Assembly (NCBI GenBank): GCA_964473825.1
Contig: CAYYQL010000005.1
Location: 1 to 64,000, forward strand
Direction: 5' to 3'
Length of the DNA: 64,000 nt
Origin: an uncultured archaeon
Lineage (GTDB): Archaea; Asgardarchaeota; Thorarchaeia; Thorarchaeales; Thorarchaeaceae
Part shown: positions 25,966-48,295 of the stretch, one piece after another
Position numbering within the stretch: position 1 is the first letter of the stretch
Layout: each line of letters opens with the position of its first letter
Position numbers and translations under genes: made by a program
Notes under the pieces: model-generated
What the model saw: only the letters and a program-made list of their open reading frames with translations
Told to the model about the DNA's origin: nothing
The model's database searches: none

Positions 25966-26955
25966 ATGTATGACAGCACTCCCGCCTTACGAGCATCTTC
26001 TGCCTACACGTCGACAGTGAATCTGGCACGAAGCTATCTGCGACAACGAGACTTCTTGACCTACGCATCACAGCTTGTCCCTGAACCTCTAGGCTCAGAA
26101 ACATGGTCGCTAGCCTGGGGCTACATCCGGAATTTTGATGATATGCTAGATGCTCCCGGACTCACCAAGGCGCAAGCCGTCGCGATGCTGGAAGGCGAGA
26201 GGAATATAGTGGAGAGAGGTCTTGCGGGAGACCTCCAGCTTGACAGGACAGCACCACTGCGGCACAGATGGCTCTCACAGTTCTTCGATAACGAGAGGAA
26301 GTTCTATAGTGGCGAGGCAATTGAGGTGGTCATGGATCTCTACGAGAGTGCGTGGGGTGATGTAGAGAGAAAGGGGGTTCTCATGTCACAGAGCGATATG
26401 GATAGGCTTCTCTACAAGAAGGCGAGGTCGTTCTTCAAACTCTACTTCATCCTGTCAGACTACGACTTGGGTGGCTGCATAGATGAGCTATCGTACACAC
26501 TTGGCATGGGATTAGGGATGCTCGACGACCTGCTGGATATCAAGAACGACTACGATGCGGGGTACATCAATGTGACCCGAGAAGAGATGGAAACCCTCGG
26601 CGTAGGACTCGATCCCGAGGACAGGGGTTTTCTTAATCGTATCTTGGACGCCGGATATGGGACCCTTCGAGGAAAGAAGATCATGTCGCTGCTTCTACGG
26701 GCAAGACGCCTTGCACGACAGGTCCGACAGCGCCTTGTGAGGATGCTCATCCTTCGACTCACGGAGATCTTCGCAGCACCTATTCTAGAGGGGCGTCTGA
26801 TTCCCGGACAGAGTTACTTTTTCAAGGGTGGGAGATTGGCAAATCGAATCCTCCCGGATAACGAGTCCCTCGCATATAAGATCGGACACCGACTCATTGG
26901 TCTGTTCTTGTCTGTGCCGCAGGTGCTTCCTTCGCTGATGACCTCCCCCTATTGA
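25966..26955 (+). CDS. Class I isoprenoid synthase fold protein (squalene/phytoene synthase-like)
   Basis: Two Asp-rich motifs: IRNFDDMLD and MLDDLLDIKNDYDAGYIN. Confidence 0.65.
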   Translation: MYDSTPALRASSAYTSTVNLARSYLRQRDFLTYASQLVPEPLGSETWSLAWGYIRNFDDMLDAPGLTKAQAVAMLEGERNIVERGLAGDLQLDRTAPLRHRWLSQFFDNERKFYSGEAIEVVMDLYESAWGDVERKGVLMSQSDMDRLLYKKARSFFKLYFILSDYDLGGCIDELSYTLGMGLGMLDDLLDIKNDYDAGYINVTREEMETLGVGLDPEDRGFLNRILDAGYGTLRGKKIMSLLLRARRLARQVRQRLVRMLILRLTEIFAAPILEGRLIPGQSYFFKGGRLANRILPDNESLAYKIGHRLIGLFLSVPQVLPSLMTSPY

Positions 26956-27119
26956 GAGCCCACTAAGCGCTGAAGCAGTAGCATCGTCATGCTGCAAATG
27001 GAACGTCTTGTTGCACTCAGAGGGAGGTGCATCTGCCAGACACCGAGCGGTGAGAGAAGATATCTCAATCTCATTACGCTCAGAGAGGTTCCATGAGGGG
27101 ACTGACGGTCCAGACAATG

Positions 27120-28103
27120 TCAGGACAAATCAGTATGCTCCGATTTCTGGGGTCGCCTCGGAAATGCGGTGGCCTCAGAGATATCCTCGAAACCACAGAT
27201 GTACCGTGTCAGCCGCTCCAGACCTATGCCAAAACCAGCAGAGGGAGGAGTTCCCTCCTGAAGCATCCTGAGATACCAATCATAGTCACGAAGGTCCAAC
27301 CCCCTCTGTGCAATCTTGCTCCGGGCAACCTCGGGACGATACTCCCTTTCGCCTCCGGAGATTCCTTCACCAAACCCCTCTGGAAAGATAAGGTCGAAGT
27401 CTCTGAGGACTGCTGGATCAGCCGGATTGCTCCTGTAATAGAACCCTCTCGTCTCCACCGGGTAATCAACAATCCAGAATGGCTCATCGTGAAGCAGCGA
27501 GAGAGCGGTCTCAGCCTCTGCTGACAACTCGTCACCGCTTCGAGTATCACAACCTAACTCTCTTGCCATCGCGACAGCCTCCTGAAAAGTCATGATTCTG
27601 AAAGGTGTAGCAGGTACCTTTACCGTGCGGTCAAGCGTCTCGAGCTCGGAGAGTGAGGAGGTCTCGGCAACCCGAATCGCACTGACAACCAAGCCCTCGG
27701 CCAACGCGATCACTTCGTCCCGGGAACTACGGGCAACTTCAACATCAACCTGAAGAAACTCAGCAAGATGACGATTCGTTGGATATCTCTCAAGACGCAC
27801 ACAGGGAGAGAAGATGAATATCCGGTCGAGGGCGCCCACAAGCATCTGCTTCTGTAGTATCATACTCGTAGTGAGCCTGTACTTCGTGCCATAGAAGTCC
27901 ACGGAGGCGGCCTCTGCTCCGCGGATGCCGGGGTCAGTGACAGGGCTGAGTATGACCGGTGTAATCTCAACAAACTTGTGCTCTTCCAGAAATGATCTGA
28001 TTCCGGACATCACAGAATGTTGTATCTTCAGTATGGCTCTTGCTCGTTCGGAGCGTATAGATAGATAGTCCTCTTCATCGGGTGATGTGCTCAGGGTTTT
28101 CAT
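27120..28103 (-). CDS. Archaeal asparagine synthetase A-like (AsnRS catalytic-core paralog lacking anticodon domain)
   Basis: LTTSMILQKQ, SPCVRLE, RHLAEF.QVDVE, GISGGEREY, SAGFGIGLERL; 327 aa. Confidence 0.85.
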   Translation of the reverse strand: MKTLSTSPDEEDYLSIRSERARAILKIQHSVMSGIRSFLEEHKFVEITPVILSPVTDPGIRGAEAASVDFYGTKYRLTTSMILQKQMLVGALDRIFIFSPCVRLERYPTNRHLAEFLQVDVEVARSSRDEVIALAEGLVVSAIRVAETSSLSELETLDRTVKVPATPFRIMTFQEAVAMARELGCDTRSGDELSAEAETALSLLHDEPFWIVDYPVETRGFYYRSNPADPAVLRDFDLIFPEGFGEGISGGEREYRPEVARSKIAQRGLDLRDYDWYLRMLQEGTPPSAGFGIGLERLTRYICGFEDISEATAFPRRPQKSEHTDLS

Positions 28104-28182
28104 AGTCCACTCCGTATCTCGACTTTGTCATTCTAACACCCAGCCATCCACGTGACAGAGGCAAGTTATAGCTTTCTACGCA

Positions 28183-28245
28183 AATTACGTAATTCTGCCG
28201 TGATTGGCACAAACTATTTCTACTATGACGTAATAATTACGGTCA
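28183..28245. promoter_or_regulatory. Candidate Lrp/AsnC operator palindromes
   Basis: Perfect AATTACGTAATT (28183-28194) and CGTAAT-A-ATTACG (28229-28241) between the divergent asnA-like and Lrp genes. Confidence 0.5.
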
Positions 28246-28248
28246 CCG

Positions 28249-28713
28249 ATGAAGCTGAGTGAGACCGACCTAAAACTTCTGCGCGTGCTCCAAGAGGACT
28301 GTAGACAACCTGTCACGAACATTGCAAAGAGACTCCGAATCCCGGTCACTACTGCCTACGACAAGGTGAAACGTCTGGAGGAACAGGGAGTGATTAAGGG
28401 ATATACAGCAATCCTGAACGAGAGAGAACTGGGATTCCCCACAACAGCACTCGTCCTTGTCTCTGTGGGGTATCCTCCAGGATCCGAATTCTCACAGGAG
28501 GCTGTGGCCGACAGCATCGCTGCGTTTCCTGAGGTCTCCGAGGTCTACATCATCGCCGGCGATTGGGACTTGATGCTGAAGATAAGGTCACGTAGTATCG
28601 AGGATGTGGGCATCTTCGTGATCAGGAAGCTGAGGAATGTCGAGGGTATCGCGAAGACCAAGACCATCTCTGTGTTCAGAAGGGTAAAAGAGACTCCCAG
28701 GCTTCCGATATAG
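28249..28713 (+). CDS. Lrp/AsnC family regulator
   Basis: LSETDLKLLRVLQEDCR...KRLEEQGVIKGY...IAGDWDLMLKI. Confidence 0.93.
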   Translation: MKLSETDLKLLRVLQEDCRQPVTNIAKRLRIPVTTAYDKVKRLEEQGVIKGYTAILNERELGFPTTALVLVSVGYPPGSEFSQEAVADSIAAFPEVSEVYIIAGDWDLMLKIRSRSIEDVGIFVIRKLRNVEGIAKTKTISVFRRVKETPRLPI

Positions 28714-28973
28714 ACAATCCTTGGCTAACATGGGCAGCAAGAGGACGAAACGCTGTTACATCAAGCCTTTGGAGCATTGATGGTAATGCGAGTCTTGTCA
28801 AGCCCGTTGACGCCGAGTAGAAGTTGGCAGGCTAAGAGAGAGACTCGGTTGATGGAGTCATTCATGGACGGGCTCGATGGAGAATTCTCATGGAGCGCGG
28901 GTACACCAACAGCCACAGAAGGCAGGGATATTTCAGCGTAGGAGTTCGTATACTCCAGCCGATGACTGAGAGC

Positions 28974-29075
28974 TGGTCACTCAGACACCATCGTTGACCA
29001 CGACAGAGACCACCCAGCGCCGTTACCTCGGGTGACGACCCTTTGGGGTCCAAGATCGTCCAGCCTACAGTGAAC
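28974..29075 (-). ncRNA. Candidate structured RNA / dispersed repeat, copy A
   Basis: About 79% identical by hand alignment to 47893-47993 (+); conserved stems; TATA-like GTATAAG ~25 nt upstream on the minus strand. Confidence 0.5.
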
Positions 29076-29231
29076 GGTATATCACTCACGAAACTTATAC
29101 CACTTCATCGCCCTATCCTCATGAGAGGGAGATATCTGTCGAGAGAATATGTCTGATTGCGCCAGATTCGTGCAAAATTCGAAGAATAGTTTATAGGATT
29201 TCACGTGTATGATGACACGGGAGTCTTAGAA

Positions 29232-46851: not shown

Positions 46852-47802
46852 ATGTTGAACAAGAGATCGGATGCATCAGCCTACGGCGGCAAGAGCTGGT
46901 CGCCAAGAACACAATCGTTCAGGCAAGAGATAGGCACTGTATGGAGACCGTGCGGCATTGACTCAGAATGGAATGATCTCAAGACCGTTCTCCTTCATCG
47001 GCCTGGGAGAGAGCTGGAAGATATTGTGGATGCTGATTCCGTTCAGATGATTGAGATACCCGATGGAGCCACCCTTGAGGAACAGCACGACAATATGGCA
47101 CAGGTGTATCGAGACGCAGGTGTGGATGTCCTGTATGTCGAACCCTCGGAAGTACCCCCACCCAACCTGATGTTTGTAGCCGACCTCATGTTCATGACAC
47201 CAGAAGGGGCTGTTCTGGGGCGCCCGGCCTCCACGGTCCGTGCAGGAGAGGAGAGATATGTGGCGGCCCGACTTGCTGCGCTGGGCATACCTATCATCAG
47301 AAGCGTGTCGGGGAACGGGACATTCGAGGGAGCCGATGCTCTGTGGCTTGACCCCGAGACCGTTCTGATAGGCCTTGGCCTCCGAACAAATGCTGAGGGG
47401 GCATTTCAGGTGGCCACTGTTCTCGACCAGATGGAAATTGATGCCATCCCCGTTGACCTTCCCCACGGTTCGATGCATCTGATGGGGGACTTGAGGTTCG
47501 TTGACGAGGATGTGGCCGTCTGCAGGGAGAAACGGATCTCGTATGGTGCCCTCAATGAACTGCACGAGCGCGGGTTTTCGGTCATTTTCGTGCCCGATGA
47601 TACGGAGGTCTCAAAAAAGATGGCCATGAACTTCGTCACACTCGGCCCTAGCAAGATTTTGATGCCTGAGAAAGCGCCAGAAACTCGCAAGCTCCTCGAA
47701 GACCACAGTATCGAGTGCTGCACCACCGATATAGAGGAAATCGCAAAGGCGGCGGGCGGAATCGGCTGCATGACCGGAGTGCTTGAGCGCACGCTGGTCT
47801 AG
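46852..47802 (+). CDS. Amidinotransferase / arginine deiminase (DDAH-like) family protein
   Basis: LKTVLLHRPG.EL, PNLMFVAD, FEGAD, RTN.EG, MHL, AGGIGCMT. Confidence 0.88.
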   Translation: MLNKRSDASAYGGKSWSPRTQSFRQEIGTVWRPCGIDSEWNDLKTVLLHRPGRELEDIVDADSVQMIEIPDGATLEEQHDNMAQVYRDAGVDVLYVEPSEVPPPNLMFVADLMFMTPEGAVLGRPASTVRAGEERYVAARLAALGIPIIRSVSGNGTFEGADALWLDPETVLIGLGLRTNAEGAFQVATVLDQMEIDAIPVDLPHGSMHLMGDLRFVDEDVAVCREKRISYGALNELHERGFSVIFVPDDTEVSKKMAMNFVTLGPSKILMPEKAPETRKLLEDHSIECCTTDIEEIAKAAGGIGCMTGVLERTLV

Positions 47803-47892
47803 ATTGAATGTGACCATTGATGGCCCCTGCAGGGATAGTCCGCATCTGTTGTGCTCCAGCCGTTCAATCGGCGAGGCAAATGGAAGAGAACT

Positions 47893-47993
47893 GTTCTTTG
47901 TAAGTTGGACGATCTTGGACCCAGAAGGTCGTCATCCGAGGTAACGTTACGGAGCGGCCTCTGTCGCAATCAGCGATGGTGTGTAAGTGACCA
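47893..47993 (+). ncRNA. Candidate structured RNA / dispersed repeat, copy B
   Basis: Homolog of 28974-29075 (-) with compensatory and consistent stem changes. Confidence 0.5.
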
Positions 47994-48079
47994 CGACGAA
48001 GACCACCCAGGGAAACTTGGGCAGAGTAGTCACATAGTTTATATTATTCTGGACGAAGAAGGAATAAGGGAGGAAAATC

Positions 48080-48295
48080 ATGTCATCTGAGTCGAACGGT
48101 GCAATTAAACTAACGCCAATGCAGTTAGCTTTCCTGATGATAGGATGGGTCTTGTTCATCATCGGTTGGATCATCCCAGACTTTCCAAGGATACTCCTTC
48201 AACTCTCTGTCATACTCACTGCTACAATATTGCTCATTATAGGAGTGATTCTTGGATTGGGATGGTTATTCAAGAGAATGAGCCATGAAGAATGA
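48080..48295 (+). CDS. Small 2-TM hypothetical protein
   Basis: GGAGG RBS; two hydrophobic helices. Confidence 0.6.
   Translation: MSSESNGAIKLTPMQLAFLMIGWVLFIIGWIIPDFPRILLQLSVILTATILLIIGVILGLGWLFKRMSHEE

What the first reader, a model, noticed from the sequence alone, without database searches (positions are those of the whole stretch)
28974..29100. Candidate novel ~100-nt structured RNA present in two dispersed copies
Seen: 29075-28974 (-) aligns with 47893-47993 (+) at about 81/102 nt with a 1-nt indel, and both copies are intergenic. Stem 1 (GACGAUCUU/AGGGUCGUC vs GACGAUCUU/AAGGUCGUC) shows a U-G to U-A change. Stem 2 (GAGGU/GUCUC vs GAGGU/GCCUC) shows a G-U to G-C change. Stem 3 (CUGUCGU-GGUCA-ACGAUGG vs CUGUCGC-AAUCA-GCGAUGG) shows a U-A to C-G double change. 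Most other differences fall in loops or flanks, and both copies end AGUGACCA. Copy A has a TATA-like GTATAAG at 29100-29094, ~25 nt upstream. Inference: a multi-stem ncRNA or a structured mobile-element end; it matches no tRNA, C/D box, hammerhead or HDV pattern I can recognise. Caveat: only two copies, and some changes are also synonymous in one reading frame.
Basis: partly seen in the sequence, partly recalled or inferred. Interest (0 to 1): 0.75.

Follow-up and report, generated by a model that had tools for sequence, protein, structure and literature searches.

The report
Gene-less IS607 mini-transposon with guide-RNA scaffold
The two look-alike 100-base stretches are worn copies of a small gene-less jumping element, found about 30 times in this Asgard (Thorarchaeota-like) genome, that keeps the transposon ends and the folded guide-RNA scaffold of a TnpB nuclease; this is a known kind of mobile DNA, not a new host RNA.

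Summary
The similarity is real, but "two copies" is wrong. A covariance model finds 34 matches in this 3.27-Mb genome, and relatives occur in 16 of 24 other genomes of the same family.

The full unit is about 185-195 nt.
- **Copy A:** window 28899-29078, nearly complete.
- **Copy B:** window 47993-47890, only the right-end ~104 nt.

One end matches the left end found next to IS607 serine-transposase genes. The other end matches the last ~65 nt of ~720-aa TnpB genes.

Both junctions carry GG: (A)GGGT on the left and AACGG|T on the right, as in studied IS607 elements.

Five helices, two of them pseudoknotted, show compensatory changes across 61 sequences (92% paired against 32-54% when slid).
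- Stems 2 and 3 are not supported by the family.

A TATA-like box lies 132-137 nt from the right end and would start transcription at the first hairpin.

My reading is a non-autonomous IS607-type element carrying a TnpB omega-RNA scaffold. Both window copies are partly decayed. Nothing in Rfam matches.

This scan already reached the same reading on other DNA of this genome (e1-5585873).

The parts
28899..29078 (+). Copy A: nearly full-length gene-less IS607-type mini-element.
   Evidence: nhmmer family profile positions 2-193, E 2.3e-52. CM R1 scores 109 bits at C5:28952-29078(+). Sequence read.
28899..28934 (+). Left end of copy A. It starts GGGTACACCAACAG. One of the two GTTGGAC-type sub-terminal repeats is lost through a 10-nt deletion.
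   Evidence: Alignment of 18 copies. LE junction table. The LE aligns with the LE of the TnpA'-'TnpB element in contig C1 and with the LE beside IS607 tnpA in G009.
28939..28952 (+). TAGGAG block plus a degenerate TATA-like box, TTCGTATA (2 mismatches to YTTAWATA). Inferred promoter for the scaffold RNA.
   Evidence: A box with at most 1 mismatch lies 132-137 nt from the RE end in 34 of 37 family members. TAGGRG lies just upstream.
28974..29000 (+). Hairpin S4 of copy A: UGGUCA (28974-28979) pairs with UGACCA (28995-29000). The loop holds the conserved GACAC-type motif.
   Evidence: Stem finder across 61 sequences. In subgroup alignment A8 this helix is 93% paired.
29004..29045 (+). Long-range helix Pa: CAGAGA (29004-29009) with CCUUUG (29040-29045). 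It encloses hairpin Pb: CCCAG (29013-29017) with CUCGG (29027-29031).
   Evidence: Compensatory changes at 4 of 6 Pa pairs and 4 of 5 Pb pairs.
29034..29060 (+). It crosses Pa, so it forms a pseudoknot.
   Evidence: G-C against U-A covariation in 11-12 sequences.
29020..29077 (+). Candidate pseudoknot PK: CCGUU (29020-29024, in the Pb loop) with AACGG (29073-29077, the last bases of the right end). GG at 29076-29077 is the inferred core dinucleotide.
   Evidence: 92-94% paired but invariant, so there is no covariation support. RE junction logo AACGG|T.
29078..29098 (+). Conserved T followed by unique flank.
   Evidence: Flanks are not conserved among copies. The 20-nt guide candidates of 30 copies match only their own locus.
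47890..47993 (-). Copy B: truncated fragment holding only the scaffold or right-end part, from the S4 start to the RE end. There is no left end and no TATA box. The RE end is mutated to ACAG|T.
   Evidence: CM R1 scores 82 bits at C5:47890-48028(-).
47988..48010 (+). Short inverted duplication of scaffold sequence at the broken end of copy B. The strand switch falls at the palindromic S4 stem.
   Evidence: blastn hit C5:47988-48010(-), 91% to query positions 74-96. Sequence read.

Best explanation
The two stretches are copies of a ~190-nt non-autonomous element made from the two ends of an IS607-type transposon. The parent carries a serine transposase TnpA and a large, ~720-aa TnpB.

1. A left end starting GGGT, with two GTTGGAC-type repeats 10 bp apart. 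These are probable TnpA binding sites.
2. A purine-rich block plus a TATA-like box.
3. A ~105-nt folded segment homologous to the 3' end of tnpB, the omega-RNA scaffold.
4. The right-end boundary ...AACGG, followed by T and unique flank.

Inferred mechanism:
1. The internal promoter starts transcription at the first hairpin.
2. The RNA runs into the flank, giving scaffold plus a locus-specific guide.
3. TnpB made elsewhere binds this RNA.
4. After TnpA excises the element, TnpB cuts the empty site, which has a GGG-type adjacent motif next to the guide match.
5. Repair from a sister copy restores the element.

Shown here: family membership, the homologies of both ends, the GG junctions and the covarying helices.
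Inferred: transcription, strand, TnpB binding and homing.

Both window copies look decayed. Copy A has lost one left-end repeat and has a weakened TATA box. Copy B has no left end or promoter and has a mutated GG.
For: - **Copy number:** 34 CM matches in the genome. Relatives occur in 16 of 24 other genomes of the same family and none in 16 genomes outside it.
- **Right end and TnpB:** This holds in the own genome (C26, C1, C15) and in all 14 Thorarchaeota tnpB loci with a right-end match, out of 18 scanned; in 13 of these the match straddles the end of the tnpB match.
- **Left end and TnpA:** The left end aligns with the LE of the TnpA'-'TnpB deletion element. It also aligns with the LE directly upstream of intact IS607 tnpA (Resolvase plus MerR HTH) at two loci in G009.
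- **Junctions:** (a)GGGT at the LE and AACGG|T at the RE, with T in 56 of 63. This parallels the TGGG TAM, the UCGG scaffold end and the strict GG core of the CboIStron IS607 element (10.1101/2023.11.20.567912).
- **Structure on MAFFT alignments not fitted to the structure:**
  - A4, 61 sequences: 92.1% paired against 32-54% when slid; 78 double-change cells against 20 in shuffles, 0 of 500.
  - A8, 27 sequences: 94.6% paired; 12 pairs with double changes, 0 of 500.
- **Promoter:** A YTTAWATA box lies 132-137 nt from the RE end in 34 of 37 members. It is perfect in 20 of 60 on the TnpB strand and in none on the other strand.
- **Non-coding:** No reading frame is open across copies.
Against: - There is no expression data.
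- The G-U against A-C balance does not clearly fix the strand. It is 69 against 56 overall and 29 against 14 in subgroup A8.
- The PK helix is invariant, so it is not supported by covariation.
- No intact serine or Y1 transposase gene is found in this 95.7%-complete assembly.
- No clean empty site was recovered. At the orthologous locus in G002 the element is absent, but the indel is larger than the element.
- The helices could fold on either strand.
Confidence: 0.8

Rival explanations
1. The stems are relics, or are constrained at the DNA level only, for example as transposase binding and synapsis sites at the ends. On this view the mini-elements make no functional RNA and only full TnpB-carrying elements use the scaffold.
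For: - The TTGGAC/GTCCAA repeats at both ends co-vary together (TTGGAC against CTGGAC), as protein sites would.
- Both window copies are decayed.
- No transposase gene is present in the assembly.
- The G-U/A-C balance is nearly even.
Against: - A serine recombinase acts on double-stranded DNA and needs no hairpins.
- Helices Pa, Pb and S4 lie outside the repeat motifs and keep pairing through different sequences in different genera.
- A TATA-like box is held at a fixed distance upstream of the first hairpin in gene-less copies.
Confidence: 0.12
2. A free-standing host non-coding RNA gene family transcribed from the first reader's strand, unrelated to transposition.
For: - Multi-helix structure with covariation.
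- On that strand some stems of copies A and B pair better: U-G pairs in stem 1 become C-A mismatches on the other strand.
- No Rfam match.
Against: - The segment is homologous to the 3' end and right boundary of tnpB genes on the other strand in every locus examined.
- The rest of the unit is an IS607 left end.
- Copy number and location vary between congeners.
Confidence: 0.04
3. Decayed fragments of a protein-coding gene. The overlapping 75-aa and 79-aa ORFs are window 28862-29089(-) and 47851-48090(+).
For: Both copies sit inside mechanical ORFs on the same strand, and part of the translations look alike.
Against: - The 1-nt indel shifts the frame between the copies.
- Across 17 full copies no frame is free of stops in all copies; only scattered frames are open in a few copies.
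- Substitutions follow base-pairing rather than codon position.
Confidence: 0.01

Closest known systems
IS607-family transposons with TnpB and a right-end omega-RNA/reRNA (CboIStron of Clostridium botulinum, 10.1101/2023.11.20.567912; ISFba1, PMC11061315)
   Same: - A serine TnpA is associated with the same left end.
- TnpB abuts the right end.
- The scaffold ends in ...CGG at the boundary, followed by the guide.
- GG sits at both junctions.
- The left-flank motif xGGG differs from the right-end xCGG at position -3.
- The scaffold is pseudoknotted.
   Different: - Here most copies carry no genes at all.
- The TnpB partners are ~720 aa, not ~390-430 aa.
- There is no match to the RAGATH-18 core of the Firmicutes reRNA.
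- There is no group I intron.
- The host is an archaeon, and the element has its own TATA-like box.
PATE-like gene-less derivatives of IS200/IS605 elements that 'often encode omega-RNAs' to be used in trans (Meers et al., PMC10055086)
   Same: A minimal non-autonomous element keeping the left end, the right end and the guide-RNA scaffold. It is present in many copies and depends on TnpA and TnpB made elsewhere.
   Different: - Those elements are mobilised by a Y1 tyrosine transposase through single-stranded DNA hairpins. Here no Y1 gene is found, and the ends and junctions are of the IS607 serine-recombinase type.
Asgard 'aCas1-TnpB' loci (groups Cas1H-Asgard-1/-2; Altae-Tran et al. 2023, PMC10691335)
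   Same: - Large TnpB genes in Asgard archaea.
- That paper notes a hypervariable stretch downstream of tnpB preceded by a single conserved T. Here T follows AACGG in 56 of 63 copies.
   Different: - That paper describes gene-carrying loci, proposes Cas1 as the transposase and gives no RNA structure.
- The copies here are gene-less. I did not test any Cas1 link; it comes only from earlier notes of this scan.

Membership tests
IS607-family insertion sequence (non-autonomous derivative) | Ends shared with elements that encode a serine-recombinase TnpA (MerR-type HTH plus resolvase domain) | tested here: met
   The LE profile hits directly upstream of intact tnpA (PF00239 plus MerR) at two G009 loci, E 5e-6 to 7e-6. 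The LE and RE flank the TnpA'-'TnpB chimera in own contig C1 (NF033518 residues 2-78). The mini-element itself encodes nothing.
IS607-family insertion sequence (non-autonomous derivative) | GG core dinucleotide at both transposon-host junctions | tested here: met
   The LE starts (a)GGGT in most of 33 junctions. The RE ends AACGG in 57-58 of 63.
IS607-family insertion sequence (non-autonomous derivative) | Asymmetric ends without terminal inverted repeats | tested here: met
   The termini GGGTACACC... and ...CAATGAACGG are not inverted repeats. Only the sub-terminal GTTGGAC/GTCCAAC motifs are inverted between the ends.
IS607-family insertion sequence (non-autonomous derivative) | Evidence of mobility (precise filled and empty sites) | tested here: inconclusive
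   The element is absent at the G002 orthologue of the copy A locus, but the indel is ~370 nt. The other comparisons are composite. Copy number varies among genomes.
TnpB omega-RNA / reRNA | Encoded at the 3' end of tnpB and the right end, on the tnpB strand, ending at the boundary next to a variable guide | tested here: met
The homologous segment straddles the tnpB stop in own C26, C1 and C15. Flanks are unique.
TnpB omega-RNA / reRNA | Conserved multi-helix, pseudoknotted fold supported by covariation | tested here: met
   Pa, Pb, Pc and S4 show double changes. The PK helix is conserved but invariant.
TnpB omega-RNA / reRNA | Transcribed and bound by TnpB; guides DNA cleavage next to a TAM | not testable with these tools
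   No RNA-seq or biochemical data are on hand. The promoter and strand are inferred.
RAGATH-18 (Rfam motif at the core of Firmicutes IS607 reRNAs) | Match to the Rfam covariance model | tested here: not met
   No hit at gathering threshold in the window. No hit at E<=10 around either copy, on both strands.
Classical MITE | Terminal inverted repeats and target-site duplication | tested here: not met
   No TIRs and no flanking direct repeats were seen. 'MITE-like' applies only in the loose sense of a short gene-less derivative.
PATE (IS200/IS605 derivative) | Mobilised by a Y1 TnpA; IS605-type ends | tested here: not met
   No PF01797 match in the genome. The ends and junctions are of IS607 type.

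The most novel reading that the evidence does not exclude
The gene-less copies are working, self-promoted guide-RNA genes. Each carries its own BRE/TATA-like promoter placed to start at the first hairpin, so the genome holds some 20-30 dispersed single-guide units that arm the large Asgard TnpB in trans. That would be a scattered guide repertoire. It would protect the mini-elements from loss, and it could be a stepping stone towards array-based systems or towards RNA-guided regulation of neighbouring genes.
Probability: 0.18. Interest if true: 0.65.

Novelty: new member of a known kind. Interest (0 to 1): 0.35.

Why it matters
It removes a false lead: this is not a new class of host RNA.

It also gives three usable results:
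- A covarying secondary-structure model for the guide-RNA scaffold of the large, untested TnpB nucleases of Asgard archaea. This scaffold is not in Rfam.
- A predicted adjacent motif, (A)GGG.
- A prediction that the scaffold can be expressed from a short stand-alone unit with its own promoter.

These points would help anyone trying to reconstitute the nucleases, and anyone masking or annotating repeats in Asgard genomes.

Tried and rejected
- **Rfam:** Scans at gathering and at E<=10 gave no relevant family.
- **Single-sequence folding:** Neither copy is more stable than shuffles, z -0.5 and -0.1. The support comes from covariation, not energy.
- **Coding reading:** Rejected.
- **IS200/IS605 (Y1) origin:** Considered first, then rejected.
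- **Strand from G-U against A-C counts:** Indecisive, with a 2:1 lean to the TnpB strand in one subgroup.
- **Empty-site search in congeners:** Only imprecise or composite indels were found.
- **Covariance model R1:** I built it with the 3' strands of two helices mis-registered by one column, my error. Its hit list is usable, but the pair counts on its alignment A7 are not and are not used.
- **S4 stem-finder score:** Only modestly above shuffles, 13.4 against 10.8. S4 rests on positional consistency and.
- **Guide search:** Candidates have no second targets in the genome. An earlier fuzzy search timed out.

Full report
**1. Observation**

The two stretches are alike: about 79-81% identity with one 1-nt indel, and BLAST E 1.6e-18 within the genome. 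Both lie between genes. Copy B sits between a 317-aa ORF ending at 47802 and a small ORF starting at 48080. Copy A sits in a 430-nt stretch that is not conserved in a congener, while both of its flanks are. No Rfam family matches either strand. Folding either copy alone is no better than folding shuffled sequence.

**2. Not two copies, and not 100 nt**

- The window's own assembly (3.27 Mb, 103 contigs) holds 12 blastn copies.
- A profile finds about 36 significant matches, and a covariance model finds 34.
- Aligned with flanks, conservation runs for about 185-195 nt.
- Copy A is nearly full length at window 28899-29078. It has a 10-nt deletion that removes one left-end repeat.
- Copy B keeps only the ~104 nt next to one end (47993-47890), followed by a short inverted duplication.
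- No reading frame is free of stops in all copies, and the indel shifts the frame between A and B.

**3. What the ends are**

That gene is a ~720-aa protein with the Cas12f1-like TNB and OrfB_IS605 domains, and it matches NCBIfam's TnpB family model below that model's curated cut-off. The shared segment straddles the gene's stop codon and ends ...CAATGAACGG about 30 nt later. In 18 TnpB loci fetched from other MAGs, mostly titled Candidatus Thorarchaeota, the profile hits 14. Every hit is on the strand opposite to tnpB, and 13 lie at the gene's 3' end.

*Left end.* The other end of the unit aligns with the left end of a 207-aa chimera in contig C1. Residues 2-78 of the chimera match the IS607 transposase model, and its C-terminus matches TnpB. 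The same end also matches the sequence directly upstream of intact IS607 transposase genes (resolvase plus MerR HTH) at two loci of a same-family genome.

*Transposase genes.* This assembly, 95.7% complete, has no Y1 transposase and no intact resolvase gene.

**4. Junctions**

On the TnpB strand the left junction reads (a)GGGT. The right junction reads AACGG followed by T in 56 of 63 copies, then unconserved sequence.

In the studied IS607 element of Clostridium botulinum:
- the transposase needs a GG core dinucleotide;
- the target and TnpB TAM is TGGG;
- the guide-RNA scaffold ends UCGG;
- position -3 tells the empty site from the occupied one (10.1101/2023.11.20.567912).

The pair AGGG and ACGG found here follows the same logic. 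Both ends also carry two GTTGGAC-type motifs 10 bp apart, inverted between the ends. These motifs change together between subfamilies (TTGGAC against CTGGAC). I read them as transposase sites. That is inference.

**5. Structure**

I worked on sequence-only MAFFT alignments read on the TnpB strand, and counted five helices.

| Helix | Pairing | Note |
|---|---|---|
| S4 | UGGUCA/UGACCA; UGAGGU/ACCUCA, GAGGGU/ACCCUC or CUGGU/ACCAG in other lineages | hairpin |
| Pa | CAGAGA/UCUCUG | long-range |
| Pb | CCCAG/CUGGG | hairpin inside Pa |
| Pc | GGACA/UGUCC | crosses Pa |
| PK | CCGUU (Pb loop) / AACGG (last bases of the element) | candidate pseudoknot |

- With 61 sequences from about a dozen genomes, 92.1% of cells pair, against 32-54% when partners are slid. 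78 cells show changes on both sides, against 20 in shuffles (0 of 500).
- In a 27-sequence subgroup where S4 is aligned, 94.6% pair and 12 pairs have double changes (0 of 500).
- PK never varies, so it is unsupported by covariation.
- TnpB-linked copies keep Pa, Pb and Pc with other sequences (AUCA/UGAU, UCAA/UUGA, GUACA/UGUAC). They also have a hairpin in the coding region where S4 sits (read by eye).
Stem 2 exists only in the A/B sub-lineage. Stem 3 competes with S4.

**6. Strand and promoter**

G-U against A-C counts do not settle the strand: 69 against 56 overall, and 29 against 14 in the subgroup. The case for the TnpB strand rests on two things.

- *Homology.* The segment is homologous to the right end of tnpB, where the guide RNA is known to be encoded on the tnpB strand (PMC10055086, PMC11061315).
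- *A conserved box.* YTTAWATA with at most one mismatch lies 132-137 nt from the right end in 34 of 37 elements. It is perfect in 20 of 60 on this strand and in none on the other. A conserved TAGGRG lies just upstream.

With the usual archaeal spacing (my knowledge), transcription would start at the first bases of S4. That gives a ~105-nt scaffold plus flank. In copy A the box is degenerate (TTCGTATA).

**7. Mechanism and state**

The best reading is a gene-less IS607-type mini-transposon that keeps the TnpB guide-RNA scaffold. It would be moved by a TnpA made elsewhere and protected from loss by TnpB in trans, in the way proposed for PATE-like elements (PMC10055086).

- Each copy's would-be guide is unique to its own flank, as a homing guide should be.
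- Related elements occur in 16 of 24 other genomes of the same family, and in none of 16 genomes searched outside it.
- Both window copies are damaged, so they are probably fossils.

**8. Comparison and novelty**

- It works like IS607 TnpB-omega-RNA systems, and I file it as a non-autonomous member.
- It is not RAGATH-18, not a classical MITE and not a Y1-type PATE (see the membership rows).
- Earlier notes of this scan reached the same reading on other DNA of this genome (e1-5585873). I re-derived it independently before reading them.
- The new points are modest: a structure model for the scaffold of the large Asgard TnpBs, the predicted (A)GGG motif, and the fixed internal promoter.

Noticed in passing
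own genome contigs C26:~26370-28530(-), C78:2068-4293(+), C2:~67520-69700(-), C6:87035-89161(+): Several intact-looking TnpB-like genes of 708-741 aa, nearly twice the usual TnpB size. The recognisable RuvC and Zn-ribbon part lies in the last ~250 residues, and Pfam names nothing in the first ~370.
   Followed up: partly
own genome contig C1:113678-114310 (locus L029:1888-2511): A 207-210-aa open frame joins the HTH start of an IS607 transposase to the Zn-ribbon end of TnpB. It sits inside a ~700-nt element with the same left and right ends, so it looks like an internal-deletion derivative.
   Followed up: partly
L064:1175-4801(-) and L066:1123-4800(-) (genome G009, contig C18): At two loci an intact IS607 tnpA is followed by a convergent ORF of more than 1200 aa with no Pfam match at E<=0.001. 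Earlier notes of the scan call such a gene a giant Cas1-like fusion. I did not test that.
   Followed up: no
window 47988-48010: The truncated end of copy B carries a 23-nt inverted duplication of scaffold sequence. The strand switch falls at the palindromic UGGUCA/UGACCA stem, which suggests a template-switch or snap-back rearrangement.
   Followed up: partly
own genome C6:~86900 and C17 (downstream of TnpB-like genes; output): The motif GTTCACTCA appears downstream of two other TnpB-like genes. Altae-Tran et al. 2023 (PMC10691335) report the same motif after a hypervariable stretch in Asgard aCas1-TnpB loci.
   Followed up: no
own genome C48:11785-11760 (just past the left end of the C48:11794-11976 copy): About 10 nt beyond one element's left end lies ...GATGAACGGT, a right-end terminus. 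This suggests two elements inserted back to back.
   Followed up: no
window 1-64000: No Rfam family, not even a tRNA, reaches gathering score anywhere in the 64-kb window.
   Followed up: no
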